DNA of 64,000 nt, from IMG/VR virus record IMGVR_UViG_3300027749_000073, positions 1 to 64,000 of that record, one strand, 5' to 3'. The notes under the pieces are model-generated. The model did not search any database. It saw only the letters and a program-made list of their open reading frames with translations, and was not told the DNA's origin. Every line of letters starts with the position of its first letter. Positions within the stretch are counted from its first letter, which is position 1. Below are positions 11,339 to 58,298 of the stretch, in pieces. A program made the position numbers and the translations under genes. Source of the DNA: a virus.

Positions 11339-12169
11339 ATGCTTACACCCAAAGTAAATTACCTAAATAACAAGGATATGTTATTAGAAATACACAGATC
11401 AAAAAGTTCATACTGCGTTTTTACTGATCCATCATACCATCAATACGATCTAATACTTCCTAGTTTGGATAAAATTAATATTAGAACACTAGCACAAGCA
11501 AAACGAAATCAAGCAAAACGTATAGGCGATGCCGAATATGCCAAAAGAAAAGCACTAGGTGAAAAAGTCAAGCAAGCAGAGTGCGAACACGATTACAAAA
11601 AAGTCACAAAACTTGATATAGTCTTTAGGGTCATGTCATATGACCACATTCCAATGGCGTTCGGCCGTAAGAAGAATCCAAAAACAGAAGCAGACAAGCA
11701 TGAAAAAGTAAATTTTCCTCCATTTCAACATTGGAAATACAACGAAAACGACGAATTAGTGTGTGTAGGTAAAAGTCATTGGAAGGGTGATTTAGAAACT
11801 GGTGAATTCAATAAGCACGCAGGGAAAATTTCCGATACTCTTGCACGTATGATGTTAAAACTATGTGAAAGATATGCAACTAGAGGAAATGTACGCGGTT
11901 ATACCTATAATGACGAAATGAAAGGTCAAGCAATTCTGCAGTTAACTCAAATTGGCTTACAATTTGACGAATCAAAATCGGATAATCCATTTGCATACTT
12001 TACAGCAGCAGTAACCAATTCTTTTGTTAGAGTTATTAACATAGAAAAAAGAAATCAAAACATACGCGATGATATTCTTGAAATGAACGGATTAAATCCT
12101 TCTTATACTAGAACAAGTGCAGGTGAGTTTGAAGCAGCACAAAGACGGCATAACGAGGATACAGAATGA
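11339..12169 (+). CDS. Late-transcription sigma factor (T4 gp55-like)
   Basis: NYLNNKD..; RGYTYNDEM...QFDESKSDNPFAYFT..NSFVRVINIEKR signature; directly upstream of gp47/gp46 as in T4. Confidence 0.85.
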   Translation: MLTPKVNYLNNKDMLLEIHRSKSSYCVFTDPSYHQYDLILPSLDKINIRTLAQAKRNQAKRIGDAEYAKRKALGEKVKQAECEHDYKKVTKLDIVFRVMSYDHIPMAFGRKKNPKTEADKHEKVNFPPFQHWKYNENDELVCVGKSHWKGDLETGEFNKHAGKISDTLARMMLKLCERYATRGNVRGYTYNDEMKGQAILQLTQIGLQFDESKSDNPFAYFTAAVTNSFVRVINIEKRNQNIRDDILEMNGLNPSYTRTSAGEFEAAQRRHNEDTE

Positions 12170-12422: not shown

Positions 12423-13436
12423 ATGGGGAACTTATTTAAGAAGGTAGCAGTATTTACAGATTTGCATTTAGGATTAAAGTCTAACTCGCAAACACATAAT
12501 CAAGATTGCGAAGAATTTATAGACTGGTTTATAGAAAGAGCAAAAGAACACGGATGCGAGACCGGAATGTTTTTAGGTGATTACCACCATAATAGAAATA
12601 CATTAAATGTAGTAACTATGGCTTATTCGTTAAGAATATTAGAAAAACTAGGAAAAGCATTTGATAACTTCTACTACTTCCCAGGAAACCATGATTTATA
12701 CTACAGAGATAAGCGAGATATTCATTCTGTAGAGTTTGGAAAGTATATTCCGGGCATTACAGTAATTGATCACCCTACAACTATCGGTAATGTAACACTG
12801 TGCCCATGGTTAGTAGGAGATGAATGGAAAACAATTGGTAAGAAAGGCGGCAAATATATCTTTGGACACTTTGAATTACCTAATTTCTTTATGAATGCAA
12901 TGGTACAAATGCCAGATCACGGTGAAATACAAGTAGATCACTTTAACAAGTACGAATTAGGGTTCAGCGGGCACTTTCATAAACGTCAACAACGTCAAAA
13001 CATTCATTATATCGGAAATGCGTTCCCGCATAACTATGCAGATGCATGGGATGACGATAGAGGCATGATGATCATGGAGTGGGACGGCCAGCCTGAATAC
13101 ATTGCTTGGCCAAACCAACCTACATTTAGAACATTGAAGTTAAGTAGACTAATAGACGAAGCAGATACCTTGCTAAAGCCAAAGCAGCACCTAAGAGTAG
13201 TATTAGATATTGATATTACCTACGAAGAAGCAAGTTTTATCAAAGAAAAGTTTATTGCAGACTATAATCTAAGAGAAATAACACTGATAGCCGAAAAAAG
13301 GGTAATCGAAATAAGCCAAGAGATCGATATTCAGCAATTTGAGAGTATCGATGAAATTGTGTCCAATCAGATTGTAAGTATTGACTCAGACATGTATAAT
13401 AAAAACACATTACTATCGATCTATAGCAACCTATGA
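12423..13436 (+). CDS. Recombination endonuclease subunit (gp47/Mre11/SbcD)
   Basis: Metallophosphoesterase motifs DLHLG, GDYHH, GNHD, GHFE, SGHFH. Confidence 0.93.
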   Translation: MGNLFKKVAVFTDLHLGLKSNSQTHNQDCEEFIDWFIERAKEHGCETGMFLGDYHHNRNTLNVVTMAYSLRILEKLGKAFDNFYYFPGNHDLYYRDKRDIHSVEFGKYIPGITVIDHPTTIGNVTLCPWLVGDEWKTIGKKGGKYIFGHFELPNFFMNAMVQMPDHGEIQVDHFNKYELGFSGHFHKRQQRQNIHYIGNAFPHNYADAWDDDRGMMIMEWDGQPEYIAWPNQPTFRTLKLSRLIDEADTLLKPKQHLRVVLDIDITYEEASFIKEKFIADYNLREITLIAEKRVIEISQEIDIQQFESIDEIVSNQIVSIDSDMYNKNTLLSIYSNL

Positions 13437-15208
13437 AGTTAAAAACAATAACAGCAAAAAATTTCTTATCAATCGGAAATCAAACACAGGGAATCGACCT
13501 AACTGCTAGTAATATGACACTAGTACTAGGCGAAAACCTAGACATGGGTGGAGATGATAACGGTAGCAGAAACGGTGTGGGTAAAACTGCACTGTTAAAT
13601 GCAATTAGCTATGCGTTATATGGTACTGCACTTACAAATATCAAGAAAGATAACTTGATTAATAAAATTAACAACAAAAACATGTTAGTTACGCTTTCGT
13701 TTGAAAAAGACGGTACTGAATATCGTATCGAGCGAGGACGTAAACCTACTATTTTTAAGTTTTATGTTAATGACATAGTGCAGGACTCAACAGAAGTTGA
13801 CGACGCCCAGGGCGATATGCGAGAAACACAAAAAGAATTACACGCTCTCTTAGGTATGAGTCACGACATGTTTAAACATATCGTAGCGTTGAATACCTAC
13901 ACCGAACCGTTTCTTGCGTTACGCGCTAACGATCAACGAGAAATTATCGAACAATTATTGGGTATTACGTTACTAAGTGAAAAAGCAGAGAAGCTCAAAG
14001 AGCAAATACGTCAATCTAAAGACAGTATTAGCCAAGCAACTGCAAATATTGAAGCAACTAAAAAAGCAAATGAGAAAATCCAACAAAGTATTAACACATT
14101 AACCTTGCGGCAAACTGCATGGAACTCTCAAAATGAGTTAGACGTTGAAAAAATTGCACGAGCAATCGTTGAATTAGAAAGCGTCAACATCGAACTTGAG
14201 ATTTCTAACCATTCTCAATTAAAAGAATACTTAGAACAACGTGCAAAAATAGCAAGTCTAAACAAAGAAAAAGCAACTTTAGAGTCTGCAATAGCACAGG
14301 CTCTTAAAACTCGTGACAAATATACAAAAGAAGTTGCTGCCTTAGGAAATAAAAAATGCCACGCTTGTGATCAAGAGCTGCACGACCATAAACATGAAGA
14401 ATTATTAGCACTAGCCAATCAACATTTAGCCGAATCACAGCAGTATCACGATAAAGTTGAAGTTAATTATACTAAAATCTGTGATGAACTAACTGGATTT
14501 ACTGTAATTAACGTACGTCCAGACACATATTATGACACGGTTGAACAAGCATTAACTCATCAAAACAACTTACAGACATTAGAAACACAATTATTAATCA
14601 AAGCAGCTGAGACAGATCCATATCAAGAGCAGATTGACGAGCTTAACAACACTGCTATGCAAGAAATTACATGGGACGAAATCAATAGTTTAACCACTGT
14701 TAAAGATCATCAGGAGTTTTTACTTAAACTGCTAACCAATAAAGATAGTTTCATCCGTAAAAAGATCATCGACCAAAACCTTGCATACTTAAACAACAGA
14801 CTTACGTATTATCTCGATAAGATGGGATTGCCGCACACCGTAGTGTTCCAAAATGATCTTAACGTTGAAATTACGCAGTTAGGGCAGGACTTAGACTTTG
14901 ATAACTTGTCTAGAGGCGAACGTAACAGATTAATTTTAGGTCTGTCGTGGGCGTTCCGTGATGTATGGGAAAGTTTATATCAACCAATTAATTTATTGTT
15001 TGTTGATGAATTAATCGATAACGGATTAGATGCAAGCGGAATCGAAAATGCACTAGCAGTACTTAAGAAAATGGCGCGAGAGCGTAATAAAAACATCTTT
15101 TTGATAAGTCATAAAGATGAATTAGTAGGACGAGTTTCTAACGTGTTAAAAGTAATAAAAGAAAACGGATTTACATCATTTGCAACTGATTTGGAGATCA
15201 GCGAATGA
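13433..15208 (+). CDS. Recombination ATPase subunit (gp46/Rad50/SbcC)
   Basis: Walker A NGVGKT, coiled coils, CHAC zinc hook, LSRGE signature, Walker B LLFVDE, ISH. Confidence 0.95.
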   Translation: MKLKTITAKNFLSIGNQTQGIDLTASNMTLVLGENLDMGGDDNGSRNGVGKTALLNAISYALYGTALTNIKKDNLINKINNKNMLVTLSFEKDGTEYRIERGRKPTIFKFYVNDIVQDSTEVDDAQGDMRETQKELHALLGMSHDMFKHIVALNTYTEPFLALRANDQREIIEQLLGITLLSEKAEKLKEQIRQSKDSISQATANIEATKKANEKIQQSINTLTLRQTAWNSQNELDVEKIARAIVELESVNIELEISNHSQLKEYLEQRAKIASLNKEKATLESAIAQALKTRDKYTKEVAALGNKKCHACDQELHDHKHEELLALANQHLAESQQYHDKVEVNYTKICDELTGFTVINVRPDTYYDTVEQALTHQNNLQTLETQLLIKAAETDPYQEQIDELNNTAMQEITWDEINSLTTVKDHQEFLLKLLTNKDSFIRKKIIDQNLAYLNNRLTYYLDKMGLPHTVVFQNDLNVEITQLGQDLDFDNLSRGERNRLILGLSWAFRDVWESLYQPINLLFVDELIDNGLDASGIENALAVLKKMARERNKNIFLISHKDELVGRVSNVLKVIKENGFTSFATDLEISE

Positions 15209-15486
15209 TGCCCAACGAAGAACTCCACGACGAGTTAATGTTAGCTCTTAGGGAGTACTTCAAAGCAAACCAACAGTGGGCAACATTGCGGACAAGAAGG
15301 TCCGCAATTAACTTGCGTCATTGGTTAAATGAAATTAGGAGACTGTGTCACTTGCAACGCATAGTAGTACAAGACTGGCGTTACGAAACATTTTCTCCTC
15401 TTAGGCCAAGTAAAAGAGCAAAAAACTTAATAGACAAAAAGGCAAATCAAAACGGCAGTGGCTCAGATGATAGCGATGCTAACTAA
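15205..15486 (+). CDS. Hypothetical basic protein
   Basis: 93 aa, overlaps the gp46 stop, Arg/Lys-rich. Confidence 0.65.
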   Translation: MMPNEELHDELMLALREYFKANQQWATLRTRRSAINLRHWLNEIRRLCHLQRIVVQDWRYETFSPLRPSKRAKNLIDKKANQNGSGSDDSDAN

Positions 15487-15491
15487 TATAC

Positions 15492-16013
15492 ATGAGTTCG
15501 AAAAGTAAAAACAAAGGAAAAAGTTGGGAAAATGATGTTGCAAAACATCTATCAGCTCTCTACAACGAGAGCTTTATACGTGTCCCTTTTAGCGGTGCTT
15601 ACATTGGTGGCAAGAATTCTGTTCGTAAAGATTTTTTGCACGAAGGCCAGATACGCGCAATGAAGGGTGACATTGTTCCTCCTGCAGATTGGAAACACTT
15701 TAATGTAGAGTGCAAATCATATGCAGAATTTCCATTCCATCAGTTGTTTACTGAAGGAAAAATTAATTTACTCGACTCGTGGATTTCACAAACACTTGAT
15801 GTTGCCGACCAAGGCGACTTCAATATCATTATCATGAAGTTTAACCGCAAAGGCGCTTATATAGCATTTGAATATAAACACATCAACACACTGCAAACAC
15901 ACAGGCACATCAAATATACATCAGAAAAACACGGAGACTGGGCATTTACCAGCTTTGAAGATTTTTGGCAATTAAACAAAGACGAAATTAAAAACCTTTC
16001 ACTAGGCAAATAA
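15492..16013 (+). CDS. PD-(D/E)XK nuclease, Holliday-junction-resolvase-like
   Basis: SKNKGKSWE..VA, SGA..GG, GDI, VECK motifs of Hjc-like resolvases. Confidence 0.75.
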   Translation: MSSKSKNKGKSWENDVAKHLSALYNESFIRVPFSGAYIGGKNSVRKDFLHEGQIRAMKGDIVPPADWKHFNVECKSYAEFPFHQLFTEGKINLLDSWISQTLDVADQGDFNIIIMKFNRKGAYIAFEYKHINTLQTHRHIKYTSEKHGDWAFTSFEDFWQLNKDEIKNLSLGK

Positions 16014-16390
16014 TACAGTAATGGCTTGCACCGGCTAACTTCGGGTGCCTATGAAAACAGGACTAACAGTCACTGGGACGGAAATCTCTGCTGTACAGAG
16101 TACTCAATCACTATCCTTAACAGGACGACGATCGGATATGCCTAATAAACCGGTTTGATTGTTTTAAGAAAAAAGATTTAAAAAAGGCTAAAAGAAGGGA
16201 CTGTGTTCCCTACGTTTGTAAGTATGTTAGCGTATATTTGCAAGCCGCCGTCAGATAAAGACGCAACTCGAGGTACCGGCTGACCGCCTCTGTAATGTTG
16301 TAACGCTAAGTGACAAAGGTCCACTCAGATAATGTCATCTTTGCCCTGCCTGGGCAAAGTGTGAGCGATCCATCTAGATAATATCTAAAA
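16014..16390 (+). ncRNA. Candidate large structured non-coding RNA
   Basis: No ORF of 60 aa or more. Ten or more local helices, some with G-U pairs, plus long-range complementarities (see findings). Confidence 0.55.
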
Positions 16391-16479
16391 GAACGTGCTT
16401 CGCACGCTATGCTATATTATATTAAGATAAAAGTGTTTGAGTGAAAACGAAAACACAGTTGAACGTAGTTCAACATTAA

Positions 16480-16485
16480 TAAATA
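16480..16485 (+). promoter_or_regulatory. Late promoter (TAAATA)
   Basis: TAAATA 23 nt upstream of ATG 16508. Confidence 0.6.
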
Positions 16486-16507
16486 AGCTTAATATGAGAT
16501 TATCACA

Positions 16508-17446
16508 ATGAAGATAAATGAAATAACAAAACAAAGCAATCAGTTAGATGAAGGGATATTAGCAAAGTTGTTTTCTCCTGTAGTAGGAAAGTTAGCAAAA
16601 TTTGTAAAAGGAAAACCTAAAACTGCTCAAGAAAGAAAATTTGCAAGAGATCTCGATACTGTTGCCAGTTATGCATCTAAAAAATTAAGTTCAGCTAAAA
16701 AGTTCATGACGACTATAGGTACGTGGGGTCTAAAAGGATCGATGTTGTATTCTGTATACACACCTCTAGACGACTATCTCAAAAATGTTGAGTACGGCCA
16801 ACAACAAGTTGAACAAGGTAGATGGACCGAAGAACAATTTAAACAATTTGAACAAAGCGAAATGGCTGCGTTAACTGGTAAATGGGCAGAGGCTTTTTTA
16901 GCAAATAAATTAACTAAACTTGGCTTTAAGCATGTGGTTAGACCAGTTCTTACCTTAGGCGGACAGTGGAAAGCACTCTCGGGATTAGTTGACGGCATGA
17001 GCCTTGCAGGACAAGCTGCTATGTTGCATTGGATTGCAAGTCCGGAAGGAGCAAAGCATGTTGCAAATTGGCTTGCTTATCAAATTGACATCCCAGTAAT
17101 AGGAAGTATAAGCGCAGGCGATGTAGCTGGAGCTACAGGTGAACTTGCAAAAAAAGCAATATTAGCTGCAGCAACTAATGCAGCTAAAATGATATCAGAT
17201 AAACCTGCAGACCCTACTGCTACTACAACGTCTCCAGAAAAACCTGCAACTACAGCTGATCCTAATTCAACTACTACTGCTACAGACAAACCAGTTGATC
17301 CAGCAGCAACTGCTAATACACAAACACCTGAAAAGCCAGTAGACAAAAAACCTGCAGTTGATTTTTCAAATGGAGATTGGGAATTTCATCGTCCTGGCTT
17401 TTTAAGAAATACAAAAACTGGTGAAATTAAACGTGGCGAAGCTTAG
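16508..17446 (+). CDS. Hypothetical late protein, possibly an internal head protein
   Basis: 312 aa, N-terminal MKINEI...LDEG, Pro/Thr/Ala-rich linker, late promoter. Confidence 0.7.
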   Translation: MKINEITKQSNQLDEGILAKLFSPVVGKLAKFVKGKPKTAQERKFARDLDTVASYASKKLSSAKKFMTTIGTWGLKGSMLYSVYTPLDDYLKNVEYGQQQVEQGRWTEEQFKQFEQSEMAALTGKWAEAFLANKLTKLGFKHVVRPVLTLGGQWKALSGLVDGMSLAGQAAMLHWIASPEGAKHVANWLAYQIDIPVIGSISAGDVAGATGELAKKAILAAATNAAKMISDKPADPTATTTSPEKPATTADPNSTTTATDKPVDPAATANTQTPEKPVDKKPAVDFSNGDWEFHRPGFLRNTKTGEIKRGEA

Positions 17447-23493: not shown

Positions 23494-23501
23494 ATATTAC
23501 C

Positions 23502-23741
23502 ATGATACTTAGAGAATTATTTTACATTGACCCGGACACTAGAAGAGTTGCAAACGATTTGCGCTATGATGCAGCCCGTGACGATACTACTATGCATAGA
23601 GATGATACTCGCAAAACGCGATTAACTCTAAGACAGATTAATGAGCTTAGAAAATCAAGTGAAGCGCATATTCTCGAACAAGAATCAGAACTTGAGTTTA
23701 TTCATTCTATGTATGCAGCACCACCAGCAGCACCGGCTTAA
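23502..23741 (+). CDS. Small conserved head-region protein
   Basis: 79 aa, DTRKTRLTLRQINELRK; preceded by TAAATA at 23491. Confidence 0.7.
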   Translation: MILRELFYIDPDTRRVANDLRYDAARDDTTMHRDDTRKTRLTLRQINELRKSSEAHILEQESELEFIHSMYAAPPAAPA

Positions 23742-23857
23742 TATTTTTAAATTTAATAAATAAAAAACCGGCGGTTTTATCCCATATTTGTATACTTTTA
23801 TATAAGTAGTATTAAATACAATACAGCCTTGTACAAAATAAATCACAGGAGAATTAA

Positions 23858-39012: not shown

Positions 39013-42000
39013 ATGGCTGAATTTAAATTAGATAAAATTAGATTTACCTGGAAAGGTGATTGGACTACTAGTATTTTTTATACTAAAGACGACATTGTTC
39101 GTTATGGCGGAAAGTCGTATGTATGTCTAGTAGGACACACTGCAAGTTCCAATTTCTATACAGACTTAAACTATATTAATACTGCAACTGAACCTGATAT
39201 TGCTGCTCCAAAATGGACACTATGGTTTGATGGTTATGCATGGAAAAGTAGTTGGAATTATTCAACATTTTATAATCAAGGCGATGTTGTTAGATTTAAC
39301 GGATATTTATATCTTTGTATTACCTCTCACACCTCTACTGCAAATATTAACAGCATGTCAGGGTTAACTACTGATTCATCAAACTGGTCAGTCTATCTTA
39401 AAACTGATTATTGGACAGGTGAATGGATAGTTACTACTGCATACCAAAAAGGCGATATTGCAAGATATGGCGGCACTATTTATAGATGTATAATTACACA
39501 TCAGTCAGATCCACTAATTGGTTTTCCAAGTTGGGGATGGGAAATTGTTACACAAGGTATTGATTATAAATCATCGTGGGCAAGCTCAACTGTGTACAAA
39601 GCATACGACCTTGTAAAATATGGAGCAAATATTTGGAAATGTACTACTGATCATACTTCCGCAAGTACGTTTACACCAGCTAATTGGACAATTTACGTAC
39701 CTGGTGTAACATTTAGAAACAATTGGAATAATGCTACTAGCTATATTCCAGGTGATATTGTAGGATATGGCGGTTACAATTACACAAGTAATACTCACAA
39801 TACAAATTCAGTGCCATCGACTCATCTAGTTGATTGGACATTAGTAACTAAAGGTTTTAGAATACAAGGTGACTGGTCATCTGCTACGCAATATTATGTC
39901 GGTGACGTTGTTAGAAGAAATGGCTATGTGTATGTTAGTATCGCAGATAATTTAAATTTAGAGCCAGCATCAAACGTAAGTTATTGGACTACCTTAATCA
40001 CTGGTACGCAGTGGAATAATCGCTGGGTAGTCGGTACTTCATATTTATTAGGCGATATTGTAATTTACAAATCAATTGCATATCTATGTATTTTAGCCCA
40101 TACTGCGTCATCAGGTAACAATCCAATTTCTGGTATCGGTGTACAATGGAATACATTAATTTCAGGTGATGCAAATGAACCTATGACAACTATAGGTGAT
40201 ACTCTAACCTATAACATAGTTAATACTGCATTGCCGATCGGAACATCCGGCAATGTTCTTAAATCATCAGGAACGATGCCGTACTGGGGAGACTTTGGCG
40301 GTATTACAGTTGTGTATTACGTTGCTCCAAACGGTACAGATACGGTTACTTCTGGTACTACGTTAGCAAACCCGTTTTTAACTATAAAATATGCATGTGA
40401 TTTTATTAGAGGATTAGCAGTACCTAGTGCTACATTGTTTATTAAAACAGGTATTTACACAGAAACATTGCCTATCATTGTTGCTGCTGGATTAGAATTA
40501 GTAGGTGACGAAATTAGAAGCACTGTTGTTCAACCTGCATCTGGATATACAACGTCAAATATGTTCTATGTACGAAATGGTTCTGGTATTAGAAACATGA
40601 CATTAACAGGGCTATCTGGTTCATTAGGCACAGCAAATATTTATGGAACTAGTCGCCCAACAGCAGGAGCGTATGTTAGTTTAGACCCGGGTTCAGGCAC
40701 TAATGATTCTTCGGTTTGGATTACGACAAAATCACCATATGTACAAAATGTATCTACATTTGGAACTGGTTGCACTGGCTTAAAAATTGATGGAACATTA
40801 CATAACGGCGGCAACAAATCAGTTGTTGCTAACGATTTTACTCAGATCTTAAGTGATGGTATTGGCGTTTGGTGTACTGGCTCAAGTGCATTAGTTGAAT
40901 TAGTATCTGTGTTTTCATATTATGGCCACATTGGATACTTAGCAGAAAATGGTGGCAAAATTCGTGCTACAAATGGTAACAGTTCATATGGTACATACGG
41001 TACAGTATCAGAAGGATACGATTCAACCGAAACTCCATTAGCTGGAACTGTTAATAACAGAAATCAATCTGCACAAGTTGCATCTGTTTTTGCAGGTCAA
41101 GCACAAAATAAAATTTTAGCAGTTGAATACTCAAATGCAGGTCAAAATTACTCATTAATCTCTCCACCTACTTTTACATTTGGAGGTGCAGGAACTAACG
41201 TAAGCACATTAGTAGACGAATATAGAGACGGTGCAGTTTTTGAAGCAATGATAACTGGTACAGACGCAAATGCAGGTGGTTTTGGCTATTTAACTGCAGG
41301 AAACCAAGCACAAGGTGGTACTTCGACTACTATTGTTATTGCATCAAATGATACTAACTTAGCTGCAAATTATATAGGAATGCGAGTTATTATTAACAGC
41401 GGAACAGGTGTTGGACAATACGGTTATGTTCAAGCATACAACAGTCTTTCAAAAACAATTTCAGTTTATAAAGAAAGCACGGGTACTGCAGGGTGGGATC
41501 ATGTTGTTCCAGGTACTACTATTGCAACAACTTTAGATTCAACTACGGTTTACAGTATTGAACCTTGTGTTACATTTACTACACCGACGTTTGCATTAGG
41601 AAGTACCGGTACTCCGACTAACGCAAACAGTATTACTTATGGTAATGGAAAGTTTGTAGTTGTAGGTGGATCAGGTACTGGGGTTATGCAATATTCATCT
41701 AATGGAACATCGTGGACTACCGGTACCGGTTCTGTTGCATTTAATAATCCATCAGTTGCATTTGCTGCAGCATCTAATACATTTGTTGGTATTAATGCTA
41801 GCGGAAGTACTTATGGATATTCGGCTAACGGTACATTGTGGACTGCTGGTACATTACCAACATCTGCAACAAATTCCTCTATCATTTCTGCAAGCACTAA
41901 TGTAGCGTATATAAGTTACAGCGGAAGTACTAGAACTAACCTGTTAACTTATAGTGAGAATTTTAGTACCTGGAATACCAGCCTACCAGGAATTTCTAGT

Positions 42001-44613
42001 AATGCAACTACTGCACCTGACGGAACAACTACCGGAACGTTATTTACTTCATCTATTACATCACAATCAGTTTGGTGGAATTATACTATAAACACTAATG
42101 ATACTACTATTAGAACATTTTCAGTATTTCTTAAACCAGGAACTGTAGTATCTACTGGTATTGTTATGGTATATACCGGTTCTGCTAGTTCATACATTCA
42201 ATGCCAGATAACATGGAGTACATTATCTGTTACTTCACAGAATACTGCAGGTAACGTATCAGTCTCAACTCCAGTTGCAGTCGGTAATGGATGGTATAGA
42301 TTGTCAGTAACTGGTAGTAATTTAGTAGCAGCTAATACGTTCATACAACTCCAAATTCAACCAGCTTACACAGGTACTGGAACATGTTACGTATGGGGCG
42401 CACAACTTGAAACAGGAACCAGAGCATCAGGATATATTCAATCAGTTGCTACTCAAGGTACTGCAACCACTGAATTATTAACTTCTTCAGACGGTACGAC
42501 ATGGAATGCACTAGGCTGCCCTGCAGGAAATTTTAAATATCTTGCATATGGCACCGGAGTTTATATAGCTTCTACAGGTACAAATACAAACACAATTGGA
42601 TATAGTTATAACGGTATAACTTGGACTAATATAACATTACCAGAAACTAACTATTGGTCAGCTATCGCATACGGTAATGGCCGATTTGTAATAACTAACA
42701 CTAATGGATACTCGAGTTCATTTTATTCATTGGACGGAATTACTTGGACACGCGCAGATTTACCTACTAGCGGATATTGGAGTATTACTTACGGTCAAGG
42801 TATGTTTATAGCAGTGTCTGGTACTAATGGAGGTTGTAGAAGCACAGACGGAATTAACTGGACGTCATTTACTCCTGGTGCATTTTATAACTATATTGCA
42901 ATCGGTAACCCATCTAATACACCGAGATTTGTAGCAGTTAGCTCAACCGGAAGTCTAACAGGCACGGTTGGAACACCTGCATTAGGTAGAGTTACTGTCG
43001 GATCTGGTAAAATTGGTTCAATTAAATTGTGGAATCCAGGAAGTGGATATCCTGCAACTCCTACTACTGCGCAATTTGTTGCTAGTGTAAATGGAACAAT
43101 ATTATCGTTAACCTTATTAAATTTAGGTTCTATAGTTAACGGTATGGTATTATATGGCGGACGTGGTAATGTTGCAGCTAACACTGTAATTACTGGACAA
43201 AATAACGTAACATTTGTTGGTTTTATTAATGGAACAATATTAACAGTAACATCAGTTAGTGTTGGTTCAATGGCAGTAGGATTAGTTCTTACTAATAGTG
43301 GCGTAGTTACTGGTACTACTGTAATAAGTTCAGATACAGCTGTGTTTAATGGTACTATTGCCGGTTCTACCTTAACAGTAACGACTATGGGATCAGGTAT
43401 TATATATCCGGGTATGGTTTTAACTGGTGGTGCATTACCTGCAGGATTGTATATTGTTTCTAATATTAGTGGAGCAGGTACTAATAGTACATGGCAAGTA
43501 AGTCAATCAGGTTCATATATTGTTTCTAATATTAATGGTATTAGATATCAAGTTGATACTTCTCAAACGATTGCAGTTGGATCTACATTTGGTGGTACTA
43601 GTTACAATATTAGTATTAGCCAAACATTAGCAACTGCTAACTTTTATGCATCACTTGAACCAGGTGCAATCGCTACTATAACTGACCCAAATGCATCGTC
43701 AACTGTGGTTATAAACTGTCGTGTAGGAAATGGAGTTTTAGGTAATCCATCATTTATCAATCGTGGAAATAACTATCAAACATCAACTACTACTTGTACA
43801 ATTACAGGCGGTGCAGGGTATGCTGATATCTACCCAGTTTCAAAGTACTTAACAGTTAGCAATTTATCATATTCTCCAAGTTTAGGTGCAAGTTTAACAA
43901 TTGGAGCAAATCAGACTCAATATAAGATTGTTAATGTTACGAATCTAACCGGCGGAACATATTACTTACAAATTAGTCCAAGTATTTCAAGATCAATTAC
44001 GCCGGCACACGGCACTGCAATTGCAATTAGACAGAAATATAGTCAAGTACGACTAACAGGACATGATTATTTGTTAATTGGTACAGGTAATAAAACTACA
44101 TCAAATTATCCAAATACTGATATAACTACTGCAAAATCATATAATCAAGTAATGGAAAATAATTTAGGTCGTGTATTTGTAACTGCAACTGATCAAGATG
44201 GTAATTTTAAAGTTGGTAATTTATTTGGTGTACAGCAAGCAACAGGAACTGTTACTATATCTGCAGATTTATTTAATTTATCAGGACTTAATCAAATTAC
44301 ATTAGGCGGTGTACAAGTTGGGCAAAACACCGTTACTATTACACAGTTTTCAACTGATCCGTATTTTGTTGCAAACAGTGATAATATTGTTCCAACGCAG
44401 AAAGCAATTAAATCGTACATTGCAAATCAAATTAGTAACGGCGGTGCAAACGCGCAGACATCTATTATTACTGCAGGCACTGTTGGTGTTGGGCCATTCA
44501 GCATATTTTCATCAGCAGGTACGTCGATTAAAATTAACAATAAAATGAATATGACCAAAGGGGTCGACGGTGTAATGTTAGCGTTAGCATACTTTAAATC
44601 AAGTAGAAGATAA
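39013..44613 (+). CDS. Giant fibre/spike protein: CBM5/12-like repeats, beta-helix, beta-propeller
   Basis: W...T.Y..GD.V.YGG..Y.C...HT repeats; KSPYVQNV..FG beta-helix; YGNG.FV..S.DG.TW blades; inserted TNLL.YSE...WGAQLE domain. Confidence 0.8.
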   Translation: MAEFKLDKIRFTWKGDWTTSIFYTKDDIVRYGGKSYVCLVGHTASSNFYTDLNYINTATEPDIAAPKWTLWFDGYAWKSSWNYSTFYNQGDVVRFNGYLYLCITSHTSTANINSMSGLTTDSSNWSVYLKTDYWTGEWIVTTAYQKGDIARYGGTIYRCIITHQSDPLIGFPSWGWEIVTQGIDYKSSWASSTVYKAYDLVKYGANIWKCTTDHTSASTFTPANWTIYVPGVTFRNNWNNATSYIPGDIVGYGGYNYTSNTHNTNSVPSTHLVDWTLVTKGFRIQGDWSSATQYYVGDVVRRNGYVYVSIADNLNLEPASNVSYWTTLITGTQWNNRWVVGTSYLLGDIVIYKSIAYLCILAHTASSGNNPISGIGVQWNTLISGDANEPMTTIGDTLTYNIVNTALPIGTSGNVLKSSGTMPYWGDFGGITVVYYVAPNGTDTVTSGTTLANPFLTIKYACDFIRGLAVPSATLFIKTGIYTETLPIIVAAGLELVGDEIRSTVVQPASGYTTSNMFYVRNGSGIRNMTLTGLSGSLGTANIYGTSRPTAGAYVSLDPGSGTNDSSVWITTKSPYVQNVSTFGTGCTGLKIDGTLHNGGNKSVVANDFTQILSDGIGVWCTGSSALVELVSVFSYYGHIGYLAENGGKIRATNGNSSYGTYGTVSEGYDSTETPLAGTVNNRNQSAQVASVFAGQAQNKILAVEYSNAGQNYSLISPPTFTFGGAGTNVSTLVDEYRDGAVFEAMITGTDANAGGFGYLTAGNQAQGGTSTTIVIASNDTNLAANYIGMRVIINSGTGVGQYGYVQAYNSLSKTISVYKESTGTAGWDHVVPGTTIATTLDSTTVYSIEPCVTFTTPTFALGSTGTPTNANSITYGNGKFVVVGGSGTGVMQYSSNGTSWTTGTGSVAFNNPSVAFAAASNTFVGINASGSTYGYSANGTLWTAGTLPTSATNSSIISASTNVAYISYSGSTRTNLLTYSENFSTWNTSLPGISSNATTAPDGTTTGTLFTSSITSQSVWWNYTINTNDTTIRTFSVFLKPGTVVSTGIVMVYTGSASSYIQCQITWSTLSVTSQNTAGNVSVSTPVAVGNGWYRLSVTGSNLVAANTFIQLQIQPAYTGTGTCYVWGAQLETGTRASGYIQSVATQGTATTELLTSSDGTTWNALGCPAGNFKYLAYGTGVYIASTGTNTNTIGYSYNGITWTNITLPETNYWSAIAYGNGRFVITNTNGYSSSFYSLDGITWTRADLPTSGYWSITYGQGMFIAVSGTNGGCRSTDGINWTSFTPGAFYNYIAIGNPSNTPRFVAVSSTGSLTGTVGTPALGRVTVGSGKIGSIKLWNPGSGYPATPTTAQFVASVNGTILSLTLLNLGSIVNGMVLYGGRGNVAANTVITGQNNVTFVGFINGTILTVTSVSVGSMAVGLVLTNSGVVTGTTVISSDTAVFNGTIAGSTLTVTTMGSGIIYPGMVLTGGALPAGLYIVSNISGAGTNSTWQVSQSGSYIVSNINGIRYQVDTSQTIAVGSTFGGTSYNISISQTLATANFYASLEPGAIATITDPNASSTVVINCRVGNGVLGNPSFINRGNNYQTSTTTCTITGGAGYADIYPVSKYLTVSNLSYSPSLGASLTIGANQTQYKIVNVTNLTGGTYYLQISPSISRSITPAHGTAIAIRQKYSQVRLTGHDYLLIGTGNKTTSNYPNTDITTAKSYNQVMENNLGRVFVTATDQDGNFKVGNLFGVQQATGTVTISADLFNLSGLNQITLGGVQVGQNTVTITQFSTDPYFVANSDNIVPTQKAIKSYIANQISNGGANAQTSIITAGTVGVGPFSIFSSAGTSIKINNKMNMTKGVDGVMLALAYFKSSRR

Positions 44614-44632
44614 TGCATTGCAATTAAACACA

Positions 44633-44638
44633 TAAATA
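44633..44638 (+). promoter_or_regulatory. Late promoter (TAAATA)
   Basis: 27 nt upstream of ATG 44665, GGAG SD. Confidence 0.6.
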
Positions 44639-44664
44639 TATACATATAGATCTTGGAGCATTAA

Positions 44665-47600
44665 ATGGCTGAATTTAAATTAGGTAGAATACGGTTTATC
44701 TGGAAAGGTGCATGGGCATCTTCTACAACGTATTTAAAAGATGATATCATACGAAATGGCGGAAAAACGTATGTGTGCGTAGTTGGGCATACAAGTTCTG
44801 CAGATTTCACAACAGATCTTAGTAATGTACCAACAAGGTGGAATCAAGTTTCTGATGGCACTGCATGGATGTCAGATTGGACTGTTAATACATACTATAG
44901 ATTAAATGATGTAGTAAAATACGGTGGTAAGCTGTATATCTGTACAGCAACACATACATCTGCTGCAACTATTACTTTAGGATTAGAAGCAAACATTGCA
45001 AGCTGGGATGTGTATGCAAATGGATTTAAATGGCAGACTACTTGGGCAACTTCTACAAAATACAGAATTAATGAAGTAGTAAAATACGGTGGTATTGTAT
45101 ATGTCTGTAACACCGGACACACATCTGCTGCAACTGCAACTCTTGGTCTTGAAAACGATCAATCAAAATGGGATATTTTTCATAAAGGTCTTGATTATTT
45201 AGGACAATGGAGCGGAAGTTCTGTACGATATAAAGTTAACGATCTTGTTAACTATGGTGCAGATGTTTGGATTTGTACGACTTACCACACATCGGCTGCA
45301 TCGTTTGTTGAGGCAAACTGGGCACGATTTGTAGAAGCATTAACATTTGAAAATACATGGTCAAGTGCTACTATTTACCAACCAGGTGATATCGTCGGAT
45401 ACGGTGGTTACTCATATATCAGTAAAACAATAAACAGCAACGCTACTCCGTCTACAAGCACTGCAAACTGGGGATTATTTACCACTGGGTTTACATTAAT
45501 TGGTGATTGGGCAACTTCTACATCTTACTTAGTTGGAAATATAGTTCGGTTAGGCGGTTATACCTATGTTGCAATCTTAGATCATACATCGAGTGGTTCA
45601 AGTACACCTCCAAATCTAACATATTGGTCAAGATTAAATTATGGTATCAGATGGAATAATACTGCTAAATCATATACCGGGTTAGCTGGTACAAATATCA
45701 CCGGTACAGGAACAACTGCTACATTTAACGTGGCAACTGTCGGTACTGCGTATACTGTTACTGTAAATGCAGTAGGTACAGGATATGCGGCTACTAATAC
45801 AATTAAAATTTTAGGCACTGCAGTTGGCGGGTTAACTCCGTTTAATGATATTATAATTACAGTTGCTACTATTTCAGGTAGTGCAATTGCTACAATTACT
45901 TATACAGGTATTGCATCAACTTGGGCAACTGCTACTGGATATGTTGCAGGTGATACTGTTAGTTTTGGACCAAACAGTTATATTTGTATCCTTGCTCACA
46001 CTAGTGCTGCAGGTAACAGACCTGATGCAGACACAGTAGCAACATACTGGAACATGGTTGCAGCAGGTGCATCTACAAGTGTTTTAACAACAACTGGTGA
46101 TATTCCGTACATGGGAGCAAGTGGTTCTACTAGATTAGGTATAGGTTCTGCAGGACAAGTATTGAAAGTCTCTTCGAGTTTAGTGCCATTTTGGACATAT
46201 TTTGGTATTATTGATCAGGTTTACTATGTTGCACCGACCGGAACAAACACTCCTGCACCTGACTATGGTGTTACTTTAGATCGTCCGTGGCTAACTGTTC
46301 GGTATGCAGCTGAACAAGTTGACGCAGGCCCATTAAATCCAAATGGCTCATATTTGCTTTCAAGAAATAGAAGTTATATCCAAAGTGAGATAATTGCATG
46401 GATTAACTATCAAGTTACAAATAATATTGCGCCATTTGTAGGTTTTACGTATGTGCAAGCAACATGTCAACGTGACGTTGGGTATGTTATCGACGCGTTA
46501 GTATACGATTTATCACATGGCGGTAATGCACGTTCGGTAGCAGTTGCACAAGCATATGTGGGCGGTACATATACTCAATTAGCTAATCAAAAAACACAAG
46601 ATGTTGCAGGTTATAATCAAATGGTGTCTGTTATTAACTCAGTTATTGCAAACTCTGCACCAGGTACAACATATCAAGCAACTGTTACACGGATTAGTGA
46701 TTCTACAAAAACATTAGAAACTGGTGTTACTACATTAGTTACTAACCTAGTTAAAGTAATCACTGATGCAATCACCGCAGGTGTTTCTACAAATATTCCA
46801 GCAGTAGTTAATACTAACTATACAATTTTTGTCAAAACTGGTATTTACTATGAAACATTACCTATTATTGTTCCTGCAAATACTGCAATTGTTGGTGACG
46901 AATTACGTTCATCTAATATTAGACCAAAGAGTACATCAATTGCAACTACTGATACAACTTATAGTATAGCAACGGTAACTAGATTACAAAGTATTATATC
47001 AAACTTAGTACAAAATTTAACAGTTACTCCTACCACAGGCAATCCATTAACTCCAGTTACTACACGTCCTGCAAGTAATTCAACAGTAGGTACGGCGGCG
47101 GCGGCATTATTAACAAATTATATTGCTTATATCAACTGGTATATTAACAGTAGTGGTTCTGCTCCTGCATTAGTTGGCACAAATACACCAACTGCTACAC
47201 AAGCATATTATGATGCAGTAGAAGTGTTAGAAGCAAATAAAGAATTTTTAGCTCAAGAAGCAGTTGCGTATACCAATTATACATACAGTACAACTGTATC
47301 AGCTACTGCTACAAATGGTAATATCACAGTTGCAAACTCTACTAACTTTGCAGTCGGTATGCCTGTAGTGTTTAGTGGTACTGTTGGTTCTTCTGGCATT
47401 GTAGTTGGAACTGTTTATTATGTTAAAACTTCAGCTGCTAACGTGTTAACTGTTGCTGCAACATCGGGCGGTACTGCACTAACATGGACAGCAACATCTG
47501 GCATGTCATTTACCGTTACACTATCATATGTTTCTGCAACGTGTGCGCGTGATGTTAGAGTGTTAGTAAACGCAATAAAATATGACTTAGTTTATACTGG

Positions 47601-57188: not shown

Positions 57189-58298
57189 ATGAATATTATA
57201 ATATTAACACCCGACAGAGTAGGATCAAGTTTACTGCAAAAGTATATTACAGTGACTATGCAACAATATGACTATCAACACCCAGTTATTAATTTACACG
57301 AACTCACTAACGGAATTGAATCATATCATTCAACAAAATATAACCAACAAGTATTAGGAAAACCTGAAAAATCTAATTGGGGATACCATCAAACACTTGA
57401 AGAAATAACACAATTATTAAGTAGTGTAGACCATTACAAAGTATCAAGATTAGCACAATATCATATTTTAAATAGACAAGATTTATTAAAAGATCAACTA
57501 AGTTTTTATCAATATATTAATGACAATTTTTTTATAATTAGTGCCCGTAGACAAAATTTGTTCGAACATGCTTTAAGTTGGTGTATAGCTGCGTTTTCAA
57601 AACACTTAAACGTGTATGACCATCAAGAAAAAATTAGTGTATTTAAGGATTTATACCAACGGAAAATTACTATAGATCAAGAAGTATTTAAAAATTATCT
57701 AGACAAATATGTAAATTATCTAAAATGGACTGATAATCACTTTGCAATAAATTCAATATTTAATTATGAAAAAGATGTAATAGATCTTGAGTCTTACGTA
57801 GACAATCTTGACATATTTCCAATCAACCATCACCGCGTAAGTTGGGCAGATCATTATGGCATTTCTTGGAAAGATTGGAACGCATGCCATTATCTTATCA
57901 GTGATATGAGCGGTTTTTCTACAGAGGTTCCATCCACTCTTCTTTTAGAAAATTCAAATACTATTCACCGGCCATTATTATCGATGAATATGAATCAACT
58001 AATGACACGACCTGGACTAAGTGTAGCTCATCAAGAGTTCTTAACTACAAATTCAACAAATTATTTAAATACCTATAAAACAATATATAATTTAGTAGAC
58101 GACAGAACTTTAATTGCAGGGATGCCTATTAAGTTACAAACGCTAGCAGAAAAATCACTATTAGTAAAGAATTTTAAAGAATGTTTGAATACGTATAATG
58201 ATTGGAGCAATAAATCTTCGATAGGAAAGTTTTTATCCTTAGAAAAGTTAGGTAACACTGCATTAACTGAATTAGAAACTTGGTATAATCATAAATGA
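57189..58298 (+). CDS. Sulfotransferase-like protein
   Basis: IILTPDRVGSSLL resembles the PAPS-binding loop; RRQNLFEHALSW and YE motifs of Stf0-like enzymes. Confidence 0.55.
   Translation: MNIIILTPDRVGSSLLQKYITVTMQQYDYQHPVINLHELTNGIESYHSTKYNQQVLGKPEKSNWGYHQTLEEITQLLSSVDHYKVSRLAQYHILNRQDLLKDQLSFYQYINDNFFIISARRQNLFEHALSWCIAAFSKHLNVYDHQEKISVFKDLYQRKITIDQEVFKNYLDKYVNYLKWTDNHFAINSIFNYEKDVIDLESYVDNLDIFPINHHRVSWADHYGISWKDWNACHYLISDMSGFSTEVPSTLLLENSNTIHRPLLSMNMNQLMTRPGLSVAHQEFLTTNSTNYLNTYKTIYNLVDDRTLIAGMPIKLQTLAEKSLLVKNFKECLNTYNDWSNKSSIGKFLSLEKLGNTALTELETWYNHK

What the first reader, a model, noticed from the sequence alone, without database searches (positions are those of the whole stretch)
16014..16390. 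About 380-nt highly structured non-coding element with pseudoknot-like long-range pairings: candidate new large phage ncRNA
Seen in sequence: this is the only long ORF-free stretch in a gene-dense window, and it is GC-richer than its flanks. Local helices include GCACC/GGTGC (16028/16044), CTCTG/CAGAG (16086/16096) and AGGGA/TCCCT. A multibranch arm CAATCA/TGATTG encloses TCCT-TAAC-AGGA and GATCGG/CCGGTT. An 11-bp stem TTGTAAGTATG/TATATTTGCAA (16216-16243) needs three G-U pairs, which favours + strand RNA. Further helices are GAGG..CGG-CTGA-CCG-CCTC (16270-16290) and CTTTGCCC/GGGCAAAG (16339-16359). Long-range matches: loop TTAGCG(T) 16227 with ACGCTAA 16303, GTCACT 16069 with AGTGAC 16309, GACGG 16077 with CCGTC 16248. 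I cannot match it to tRNA, tmRNA, RNase P or group I/II intron cores. Inference: a ribozyme-sized folded RNA cotranscribed behind the gp47/gp46/resolvase genes. It could be a nuclease-associated RNA, an R-loop replication primer or a stand-alone ornate RNA like GOLLD/ROOL.
Basis: partly seen in the sequence, partly recalled or inferred. Interest (0 to 1): 0.75.

Follow-up and report, generated by a model that had tools for sequence, protein, structure and literature searches.

The report
Full-length Polynucleobacter-1 twin-box phage RNA
The gene-free stretch behind a small nuclease gene of this uncultured freshwater giant phage encodes a real, multiply knotted non-coding RNA of about 460 bases whose first third is an orphan motif catalogued in 2010, and whose uncatalogued rest shows one short word twice for a reader that is still unknown.

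Summary
Window 16014-16390 is a conserved, plus-strand structured RNA, and it runs on to about 16475.

Its first 141 nt (16023-16164) are a full-length match to Rfam RF01718, the Polynucleobacter-1 motif of unknown function (114.9 bits, cut-off 37). So it is not wholly new. The remaining ~310 nt match no Rfam family.

On 107 distinct relatives, 91.5% of cells in 75 pairs form standard pairs (36-44% in slid controls) and 45 pairs change on both sides. His other two long-range pairings are not.

The 3' module carries one 7-letter word twice (AGATAAT at 16327 and 16376, behind CTC and TCT). The two copies are identical in 105 of 107 relatives although the word changes about 31 times on the tree. 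I found no complement.

In phages the RNA follows a domain-minimal GIY-YIG or PD-(D/E)XK nuclease gene. In freshwater bacteria the same plan lies between a DUF6641 gene and a catalytic-domain-only tyrosine recombinase gene.

Function is unknown. My best guess is an RNA partner or regulator of that enzyme.

This scan has reported the family on other DNA many times. I reuse its name "twin box".

The parts
15492..16013 (+). Small nuclease gene (173 aa) made of the nuclease domain only; its stop codon lies 10 nt before the RNA match
   Evidence: Pfam PF24608 PDDEXK_15, residues 4-167 of 173, E 2.5e-29. PHROG 244 'RusA-like Holliday junction resolvase'.
16023..16164 (+). 5' domain, equal to Rfam RF01718 Polynucleobacter-1. 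Helices: P1 16028-32/16044-48; pseudoknot PK1 16024-26/16033-35; P2a 16049-50/16080-81; P2 16058-63/16069-75; P3 16084-89/16097-101; P4 16105-10/16156-61; P4a 16114-17/16122-25; P4b 16130-35/16150-55
   Evidence: 114.9 bits against a gathering score of 37, model positions 1-141 of 141. Pairs are kept with two-sided changes. PK1 pair GC:86 / AU:16.
16165..16195 (+). A-rich single-stranded linker
   Evidence: Alignments A1 and A2; no supported pairs.
16196..16211 (+). P5 hairpin (AGGGA / TCCCT)
   Evidence: All 107 of 107 relatives fold a hairpin of 3 bp or more here, from unrelated stem sequences.
16218..16241 (+). P6 hairpin; its 8-nt loop holds the 5' strand of pseudoknot PK2 (16227-16233)
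   Evidence: 6 of 8 pairs change on both sides. The loop is invariant in this clade.
16250..16300 (+). Knotted core: PK3 16250-53/16281-84, P8 16264-67/16297-300, P9 16270-74/16286-90
   Evidence: PK3 pairs UA:55/CG:51 and GC:62/AU:39. P8 shows up to 5 pair types.
16303..16309 (+). 3' strand of pseudoknot PK2 (pairs with 16227-16233)
   Evidence: Invariant here. In more distant subfamilies both strands are replaced by other complementary 8-11-mers.
16324..16333 (+). Twin box 1: prefix CTC followed by the word AGATAAT (16327-16333)
16339..16366 (+). P10 hairpin 16339-46/16352-59, then the conserved GUGUGA(C/G) stretch
   Evidence: helix 16; alignment A2.
16373..16382 (+). Twin box 2: prefix TCT followed by the word AGATAAT (16376-16382)
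   Evidence: Identical to box 1 in 105 of 107 relatives. Independent pairs go the same way in 11/11, 6/6 and 8/8.
16394..16406 (+). Small hairpin CGUGC-UUC-GCACG directly after box 2
   Evidence: A hairpin recurs at this place in relatives. It reads as terminator-like on the minus strand.
16433..16474 (+). Tail: stem 16433-38/16451-56 around GAGUG..ACGA, then hairpin 16458-64/16468-74 with a GUA loop
   Evidence: The motif occurs in 67 of 100 distinct tails, with 31 distinct stem pairs. An adjacent 6-8-bp hairpin follows in 65 of 67, and a 5-bp one in 1 more. The same motif occurs in bacterial copies.
16508..17446 (+). Downstream gene (312 aa, no family). It is not conserved next to the RNA, so it is not a regulated partner
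   Evidence: No Pfam or PHROG hit. tblastn finds it in 1 of 133 related loci.

Best explanation
**Shown.** Window ~16015-16475 (+) is the gene for a full-length member of a widespread family of ~370-470-nt RNAs with three pseudoknots.
- Its 5' third is the Rfam motif Polynucleobacter-1.
- Its 3' module holds two single-stranded copies of one variable 7-8-nt word. One follows A-CUC and the other A-UCU, around a hairpin.
- A conserved two-hairpin tail ends it.

**Inferred.**
- In this phage it is transcribed as the 3' end of the gp47-gp46-orf93-nuclease message and persists as a folded RNA.
- It works together with the small DNA enzyme encoded on the same transcript, as that enzyme's RNA subunit or its regulator.
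- The two boxes are read by base pairing with one nucleic acid sequence, which is why they must stay identical.

My odds: real RNA of this family 0.95; functional coupling to the neighbouring enzyme about 0.4.
For: **Family membership**
- RF01718 full-length hit, 114.9 bits.
- The 5' and 3' parts are joined. 114 of 133 loci with an nhmmer hit are full length, and 12 of the other 19 are visibly cut by a contig end.
- Of 113 new loci found with the 5' pattern, 101 have room downstream. 94 of these are full length, 6 reach column 347, and 1 has the 5' part only.

**Structure**
- 75 pairs, 91.5% paired against 36-44% in slid controls. 45 pairs change on both sides. 0 of 500 shuffles reach the observed values.
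- G.U pairs fixed on the + strand: 105, 106 and 97 of 106.
- PK2 covaries.

**Twin boxes**
- Identical in 105 of 107. Shuffled partners give a mean of 26 and a maximum of 38.
- Lockstep changes in 11/11, 6/6 and 8/8 independent pairs.
- Other word sets occur in other subfamilies and in bacteria, with the same ACUC/AUCU frame.

**Enzyme link**
- The upstream same-strand ORF is GIY-YIG-only in 94 and PD-(D/E)XK in 14 of 113 loci.
- In the 5'-pattern set the counts are 76, 14 and 13 none, of 103.
- In bacteria DUF6641 lies upstream in 27 of 36 loci. A 192-aa catalytic-domain-only recombinase lies downstream in 9 of 36.
- The downstream gene varies in identity and strand.

**Close strains**
Three substitutions inside helices all keep the pair.
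Against: - No RNA data: no RNA run was listed, so ends, stability and even transcription are inferred.
- All the phage loci share one gene order. The phage-side link to the nuclease may therefore be inherited synteny, not independent evidence.
- The PD-(D/E)XK gene also occurs without the RF01718 domain. Only 7 of 27 loci have it at the gathering score. Seven carry another 5' domain and eleven another RNA after an RNase H gene.
- No complement of the word was found in 600 nt upstream, the RNA body, the tail or downstream.
- None was found in the homologue, in the one related genome that has it (5 searched), of the window gene holding the only candidate.
- The word is neither enriched nor avoided in the window: 21 copies against 15.4 expected.
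- GIY-YIG, PD-(D/E)XK and tyrosine-recombinase enzymes are not known to need RNA (general knowledge).
Confidence: 0.4

Rival explanations
1. Landmark reading. The RNA has some other, unknown trans function. Selfish DNA enzymes simply settle next to it because it is highly conserved. Homing-type nucleases would do this in phages, and island integrases in bacteria, as they do at tRNA and tmRNA genes.
For: - Two unrelated nuclease families occupy exactly the same slot.
- The GIY-YIG protein matches the SegE homing-endonuclease domain.
- In bacteria the recombinase gene follows the RNA's 3' end.
- 13 of 103 phage loci show neither nuclease within 200 nt.
Against: - The nucleases are nearly fixed, not patchy: 90 of 103 loci have one.
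- They lack the DNA-binding domains that Seg-type enzymes carry: 141 aa, with the domain covering residues 2-128.
- No further copy of the word, as an att-core repeat would give, lies in any of the 5 bacterial loci (about 4-8 kb each) whose word is AUCGAAAG, the one word searched.
Confidence: 0.2
2. Purely cis-acting transcript element. It would be a long structured 3' end that stops transcription and exonucleases between the replication-gene block and the oppositely oriented structural genes. It could also be a leader for the next gene, as the 2010 catalogue entry hinted.
For: - It lies at the module boundary, with the baseplate hub gene on the minus strand downstream in 91 loci.
- Tail hairpins score as terminator-like on the minus strand.
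- The table in Weinberg 2010 marks the motif as possibly cis-regulatory (passage seen).
Against: - About 460 nt with three covarying pseudoknots and co-changing twin words is far more than a terminator needs.
- The downstream gene differs in identity and strand.
- The same plan exists in bacteria in another setting.
Confidence: 0.12
3. DNA-level signal, such as a replication origin, recombination hot spot or packaging site. The twin words would be protein-binding direct repeats about five helical turns apart, and the hairpins would be extruded in single-stranded DNA.
For: - It lies next to the recombination genes gp46/gp47 and a resolvase-like nuclease.
- The direct repeats are spaced 49-71 bp.
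- Triloop hairpins occur in the tail.
Against: - Pairs that are G.U on the + strand would be C-A mismatches on the other strand, and they are fixed in 97-106 of 106 sequences.
- Compensatory changes maintain nested helices and pseudoknots.
- The RF01718 covariance model scores 78-120 bits in 15 of 15 loci.
- DNA contigs show no joint between the boxes.
Confidence: 0.05
4. Decoy or take-over RNA. A stable structured RNA would bind and sequester a host factor such as a defence nuclease or an RNA-binding protein. The boxes would mimic that factor's natural substrate.
For: - The RNA is widespread and conserved in lytic T4-like phages.
- The words evolve fast, as expected in an arms race.
Against: - Freshwater bacteria themselves carry the same RNA, in 36 genome or MAG contigs including isolate genomes.
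- No evidence points to any host partner.
Confidence: 0.08

Closest known systems
Polynucleobacter-1 RNA motif (Rfam RF01718; Weinberg et al. 2010, Genome Biol 11:R31, PMC2864571; I saw the search listing and one table passage)
   Same: Window 16023-16164 matches the whole 141-position model at 114.9 bits. The habitat is the same: the paper's table lists Burkholderiales and fresh water or estuary, and the DNA holders here are freshwater and lake metagenomes.
   Different: - The catalogued motif ends at P4. Here, and in 94 of 101 phage loci with room, it is only the first third of a longer RNA.
- That longer RNA has two more pseudoknots, twin boxes and a tail.
- The catalogue entry gives no function and hints at cis-regulation, which the variable downstream genes do not fit.
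cow-rumen-2 RNA motif (Rfam RF02947)
   Same: There is a sub-threshold likeness of 16214-16312 to the whole model. Shared features are a hairpin with a UUAGC loop, GCCGCC, and an ACNGGNUGACC hairpin.
   Different: The score is 19.9 bits against a cut-off of 66, E 0.56. No hit at E of 1 or below appeared in 15 relatives. Homology is unproven.
Large ornate bacterial and phage RNAs: GOLLD, ROOL, OLE (Rfam families; Nature 2025, PMC12286853, search listing and abstract only)
   Same: They are large, intricately folded, of unknown function, and often phage- or lake-derived.
   Different: No Rfam hit to any of them. This RNA is smaller. The twin co-changing words and the fixed enzyme neighbour are not features I know from those classes (recalled).
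Guide or bridge RNAs of mobile-element enzymes: TnpB/IscB omega RNAs and IS110 bridge RNA (recalled from general knowledge; PMC10690162 and PMC13565253 seen as listings only)
   Same: A structured RNA is encoded next to a small DNA enzyme and carries short variable words.
   Different: - The enzyme families here (GIY-YIG, PD-(D/E)XK, tyrosine recombinase) are not known to be RNA-guided.
- The words are only 7-8 nt and are identical to each other.
- No target was found.

Membership tests
Rfam RF01718 Polynucleobacter-1 | Covariance-model score at or above the curated gathering score (37 bits) | tested here: met
   114.9 bits, E 3.3e-24. The own-genome search finds the same single copy.
Rfam RF01718 Polynucleobacter-1 | Full model covered, with its four hairpins and the closing helix | tested here: met
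   Model positions 1-141 of 141, not truncated. The helices are kept with two-sided changes in 107 relatives.
Rfam RF01718 Polynucleobacter-1 | Freshwater or Burkholderiales setting, as listed in the 2010 table | tested here: met
   DNA holders are freshwater, lake and sediment metagenomes. Bacterial copies lie in Polynucleobacter, Limnohabitans and Comamonadaceae contigs.
Full-length twin-box RNA (this scan's working family; not in print as far as searches show) | The 5' RF01718 domain is joined to a core with PK2 and PK3 | tested here: met
   All PK2, PK3, P8 and P9 pairs are standard in the window and covary in relatives.
Full-length twin-box RNA (this scan's working family; not in print as far as searches show) | Two identical words behind CUC and UCU, flanking a hairpin and GUGUGA | tested here: met
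   AGATAAT at 16327-16333 and 16376-16382.
Full-length twin-box RNA (this scan's working family; not in print as far as searches show) | Tail: a stem around GAGYR..RCGAA, followed by a hairpin with a GNA or GNNA loop | tested here: met
   Window 16433-16474.
Rfam RF02947 cow-rumen-2 | Score at or above the gathering score (66 bits) | tested here: not met
   19.9 bits, E 0.56. No hit at E of 1 or below in 15 relatives.
tRNA, tmRNA, RNase P, group I/II introns, GOLLD, ROOL, HEARO | Any Rfam or ARAGORN match | tested here: not met
   No gathering-score match in the window other than RF01718. Nothing at E of 10 or below in 15800-16700. ARAGORN finds 0 genes.
RNA-guided DNA enzymes (omega or bridge RNA systems) | The guide word is complementary to a DNA target | tested here: inconclusive
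   No complement was enriched near the RNA. One window candidate failed in a relative. No extra copies lie in bacterial loci. Whole genomes of relatives were not scanned.
RNA-guided DNA enzymes (omega or bridge RNA systems) | The enzyme binds and needs the RNA | not testable with these tools
   This needs biochemistry.

The most novel reading that the evidence does not exclude
The RNA is the missing recognition module of three unrelated, domain-minimal DNA enzymes:
- GIY-YIG-only nucleases;
- PD-(D/E)XK-only nucleases;
- catalytic-domain-only tyrosine recombinases.

On this reading the twin 7-8-nt words pair with DNA. They must be identical because the two DNA sites that are cut or exchanged must share one core sequence. 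This would be a new class of RNA-directed DNA cutting or joining, shared by freshwater phages and bacterial islands.
Probability: 0.06. Interest if true: 0.95.

Novelty: new variant of a known kind. Interest (0 to 1): 0.6.

Why it matters
- An orphan RNA motif catalogued in 2010 turns out to be the first third of a much larger knotted RNA.
- That RNA is a fixed gene of hundreds of uncultured freshwater T4-like giant phages, and it also occurs in freshwater Burkholderiales.
- Its pair of always-identical but fast-changing words is a rare kind of constraint. It gives a direct experimental handle: change one box, then both.
- If the steady pairing with domain-minimal DNA enzymes reflects a true partnership, it would open a new RNA-protein system.
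- If not, the RNA is still one of the larger unexplained phage RNAs.

Tried and rejected
**Ideas tested and rejected**
1. *Stop-codon or translational-bypass reading of the box.* All eight words of this clade contain UAA or UGA. Rejected because other subfamilies and bacteria use words such as GGUCAAG, AGUCAAG and AGCGAAAG.
2. *A complement of the word near the RNA.* In the main clade (105 sequences) the own reverse complement was present as follows:
   - 600 nt upstream: 1, against 3.4 expected;
   - RNA body: 0, against 0;
   - tail: 3, against 2.3;
   - downstream: 10, against 4.6, which is weak.

   In the CAAG clade (21 loci) there was no enrichment.
3. *A trans target in the window.* Gene 57189-58298 holds two reverse-complement copies 21 nt apart. 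Only 1 of 5 related genomes had the gene. Its homologous site lacks the complement of that phage's word. Rejected as a codon coincidence.
4. *The word as an att-core repeat of bacterial islands.* I searched one word, AUCGAAAG. Only the two box copies occur in the 5 loci that use it.
5. *Closest-pair natural experiment.* The closest relatives that differ in the word are at most 86% identical, which is too far apart.
6. *cow-rumen-2 homology.* Not significant.
7. *A late promoter in front of the RNA.* The window has none. Its 4 TATAAATA copies all lie elsewhere.
8. *Expression.* No RNA holder was listed. The one read-laying run had DNA contigs only. It showed no joint between the boxes, and only joints from other relatives.
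9. *Literature.* Searches for 'Polynucleobacter-1', 'RF01718', structured phage RNAs, and GIY-YIG plus noncoding RNA found only Weinberg 2010 naming the motif. PMC10690425 has no mention of GIY-YIG, T4-like or Polynucleobacter in its main text. Its supplementary tables, which list thousands of candidates, are closed and may hold this RNA.
10. *The ORF after the RNA in L166.* By eye it looks GIY-YIG-like, but Pfam gave nothing, and part of it is masked.

**Rows dropped**
- Loci cut by contig ends and exact duplicates were left out of the 107-sequence set.
- The strict tail regex misses variants (67 of 100).
- My twin-word filter missed L166, which I saw by eye.
Full report
**What the window is.**
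- The window is part of an 89.5-kb fragment of an uncultured virus (IMG/VR record, about 25% complete by CheckV).
- The genes around the finding form a T4-type block on the + strand:
  - late sigma factor gp55 (11339-12169);
  - gp47/SbcD (12423-13436);
  - gp46/SbcC (13433-15208);
  - a 93-aa ORF with no family;
  - a 173-aa PD-(D/E)XK nuclease (15492-16013; Pfam PDDEXK_15 over residues 4-167).
- Downstream lie a 312-aa ORF with no family, a baseplate hub gene on the minus strand, a tape-measure-like gene and the portal gene.
- The best gp46 matches among deposited phages are only 48% identical, to Pseudomonas jumbo phage PA5oct and its kin.
- Public runs that hold this DNA are freshwater, lake and sediment metagenomes. 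None is on record as RNA.

**Check of the observation.**
- Between 16014 and 16507 there is no ORF above 48 aa.
- GC rises to 0.41-0.46, against 0.30-0.39 beside it.
- Folding of 16015-16475 alone is only modestly better than shuffles. The z-score is -2.66 on the + strand and -2.12 on the minus strand. The single sequence therefore proves little.
- The decisive first result is Rfam. Window 16023-16164 (+) matches the entire 141-position model of RF01718, Polynucleobacter-1, at 114.9 bits against a gathering score of 37.
- Nothing else in the window reaches a gathering score. ARAGORN finds no tRNA or tmRNA.
- The rest of the interval gives only a sub-threshold likeness to cow-rumen-2 (19.9 bits, cut-off 66). 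This did not recur at E of 1 or below in 15 relatives.

**Relatives.**
- 27 IMG/VR loci encode relatives of the nuclease. Seven of them carry RF01718 right behind it.
- In three of these the whole 375-nt interval aligns to the window at 68-73% identity.
- A profile of the whole interval matched end to end in 114 of the 133 loci with any hit. Of the other 19, 12 were visibly cut by a contig end and 7 were the divergent class described below.
- In the converse test, a pattern from the 5' domain also hit at least 119 contigs. Of 113 new loci, 101 had enough downstream sequence. 94 of these were full length, 6 reached column 347 and 1 had the 5' part only.
- RF01718 scored 78-120 bits in 15 of 15 loci sampled.
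- So in phages the catalogued motif is the first third of a longer RNA.

**Structure.**
I derived helices from pair statistics on 107 distinct full-length sequences. I then counted them with the pair-counting tool on an independent MAFFT alignment (A2).
- Over 75 pairs in 16 helices, 91.5% of cells form standard pairs, against 36-44% when the partners are slid.
- 45 pairs change on both sides.
- The covariation score is 0.326, against 0.05-0.075 in slid controls. None of 500 shuffles reaches any measure.
- Besides the Rfam helices, these are supported:
  - a 3-bp pseudoknot between the 5' tail and the first loop (PK1; GC:86, AU:16);
  - hairpins P5 and P6;
  - pseudoknot PK3, where the loop of P9 pairs with 16250-53 (UA:55/CG:51 and GC:62/AU:39);
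  - P8, the best-covarying helix;
  - P9 and P10.
It is invariant in this clade. In more distant subfamilies from the 5'-pattern scan, both strands are replaced together by other complementary 8-11-mers.
- G.U pairs fixed on the + strand (105, 106 and 97 of 106 sequences) would be mismatches on the other strand. The + strand RNA is therefore the folded molecule.
- In near-identical strains from other lakes, three substitutions inside helices (16050 T>C, 16219 T>C, 16234 A>G) all keep the pair.

**The 3' end.**
- Conservation does not stop at 16390.
- After the second box comes a small hairpin (16394-16406), then an AT-rich spacer.
- Next is a stem enclosing GAGYR..RCGAA (16433-16456) and an adjacent hairpin with a GNA or GNNA loop (16458-16474).
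- The strict motif is present in 67 of 100 distinct tails, with 31 different complementary stem pairs. The adjacent hairpin has a 6-8-bp stem in 65 of those 67 and a 5-bp stem in 1 more.
- A separate first-stage note on 16390-16478 describes this same tail.
- The element is therefore about 460 nt long.

**The twin boxes.**
- The strongest non-pairing signal in the alignment is identity between two columns sets about 50 nt apart.
- The window reads CTC-AGATAAT at 16324-16333 and TCT-AGATAAT at 16373-16382. These flank hairpin P10 and a conserved GUGUGA stretch.
- The two 7-mers are identical in 105 of 107 sequences. Shuffled partners give a mean of 26 and a maximum of 38.
- Eight words occur.
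- On a tree built without these columns, the word changes 31-32 times. Phylogenetically independent pairs go the same way in 11 of 11, 6 of 6 and 8 of 8 cases for the three variable positions tested. Block exchange by recombination could inflate this count.
- Other subfamilies keep the same layout with other words: GGUCAAG, UGUCAAG, AGUCAAG and AGACAAG.
- I reached this result before I read the earlier notes of this scan. Those notes describe the same feature on other DNA. I reuse their name for it.

**Bacterial copies.**
- The 5' pattern also hit 36 genome or MAG contigs. Most are freshwater Burkholderiales (Polynucleobacter, Limnohabitans, Comamonadaceae), including isolate genomes.
- The phage profile recognises only the 5' domain there.
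- Read directly, the Polynucleobacter rarus copy shows the whole plan: ACUC-word and AUCU-word around a hairpin, and the same tail motif.
- Of 29 loci with 500 nt or more of room, 17 have such twins with five or more different words, and 17 have the tail motif.
- A DUF6641 gene lies divergently upstream in 27 of 36 loci.
- A 192-aa tyrosine recombinase that consists of the catalytic domain alone lies downstream on the same strand in 9 of 36 loci.

**Gene neighbours in phages.**
- The ORF directly upstream, on the same strand and usually 0-20 nt away, falls in two main groups:
  - a 141-151-aa protein that is only a SegE-type GIY-YIG domain, in 94 of 113 loci;
  - the PD-(D/E)XK protein, in 14 of 113 loci.
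- In the 5'-pattern set the counts are 76, 14 and 13 none found, of 103 loci with room.
- All these loci share the order gp55-gp47-gp46-orf93-nuclease-RNA. The hub gene lies downstream on the minus strand in 91 loci.
- The gene directly after the RNA varies in identity and strand. This argues against a leader function.
- The shared gene order also means that the phage-side link to the nuclease may be inherited synteny.

**Modularity.**
Behind the same PD-(D/E)XK gene, three other arrangements occur:
- Seven loci carry a different 5' domain, with no RF01718 at E of 10 or below. They keep P9, the twin boxes, P10 and the tail.
- Two loci (L024, L026) carry yet another RNA-like stretch, with its own twin words: GGCAATGT twice and GGCAAAT twice, 54 and 50 nt apart.
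- Eleven loci have an RNase H gene inserted, then a late-promoter-like box, another GC-richer stretch and the same tail.
  - I examined three of these eleven (L003, L004, L008). All three have ATACATAG twice, 55 nt apart. An 8-mer pair of that kind is near chance expectation by itself.

**What reads the boxes.**
- I found no complement of the word in 600 nt upstream, the RNA body, the tail or downstream.
- The word is neither enriched nor avoided in the window: 21 copies against 15.4 expected.
- One candidate twin complement inside gene 57189-58298 failed in the single relative that could be tested.
- The bacterial loci whose word I searched hold no further copies of it.
- The stop-codon idea fell.
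- DNA contigs show no form that lacks the segment between the boxes.

**Interpretation.**
- *Shown:* a real, + strand, triply knotted RNA of about 460 nt. It is a member of RF01718 by every test for its 5' third, and it has an uncatalogued remainder.
- *Inferred:* it is made as the 3' end of the nuclease operon, since the 10 nt between the stop codon and the RNA leave no room for a promoter and there is no late-promoter box.
- In two unrelated genomic settings the RNA shares a strand, and probably a transcript, with a DNA enzyme reduced to its catalytic domain. I therefore rate functional coupling to that enzyme, as RNA subunit or regulator, as the most likely reading at about 0.4.
- In that reading the boxes are read by base pairing.
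- The landmark reading, a purely cis element, a DNA-level signal and a decoy are the rivals.
- The boldest reading, RNA-directed target choice for these enzymes, is not excluded. It has no positive evidence beyond architecture, and I give it 0.06.

**Novelty and literature.**
- Only Weinberg et al. 2010 names the motif in the searchable library.
- General searches found nothing on the full-length RNA.
- Supplementary tables of large candidate lists could not be seen.
- This scan has reported the same family on other genomes many times. My tests agree with those notes.

Noticed in passing
window 16390-16478: A separate first-stage note reads these hairpins as a DNA-level origin signal. They are the conserved tail of the same RNA element, found in relatives and in bacterial copies.
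   Followed up: yes
window 57694-57724 (+ strand gene 57189-58298): There are two copies of the exact reverse complement of the box word, with flanks, 21 nt apart. They encode a repeated Asn-Tyr-Leu. The homologous site in a relative with another word lacks the matching complement, so this is probably chance.
   Followed up: yes
window 23494-23857: This is the second-longest ORF-free gap of the window (364 nt), between the portal gene and the next gene. It has no Rfam hit at gathering score. I did not examine it further.
   Followed up: no
L002-L012 (e.g. L003:3636-4728): In the phages whose PD-(D/E)XK protein is closest to the window's (67-70% identity), an RNase H gene sits between the nuclease and the non-coding region. 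That region starts with a T4-late-promoter-like box, has no RF01718 match and keeps only the tail motif.
   Followed up: partly
L018, L020-L023, L025, L027 (e.g. L020:3513-3940); L024, L026: A second class of RNA has a different 5' domain but the same P9, twin boxes, P10 and tail. A third class (L024, L026) has its own twin words. This suggests a modular superfamily.
   Followed up: partly
L166:1950-3080 (Polynucleobacter rarus contig, minus strand): A TATAAATA box lies 117 nt before the motif. The ORF that follows the RNA looks GIY-YIG-like by eye but has no Pfam hit, and it runs into a masked stretch of N.
   Followed up: partly
window 16260-16307: In two lake metagenomes the summed contig depth rises from about 3-17 to about 200-240 on this core. 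Many co-occurring phage genomes therefore share these ~50 nt almost letter for letter, and assemblies break here.
   Followed up: no
window 15205-15486: A 93-aa ORF lies between gp46 and the nuclease. It is conserved in 37 related loci but matches no Pfam or PHROG family.
   Followed up: no
window 39013-51942: Two very large ORFs (1866 and 2425 aa) lie in the structural region. I did not examine them.
   Followed up: no
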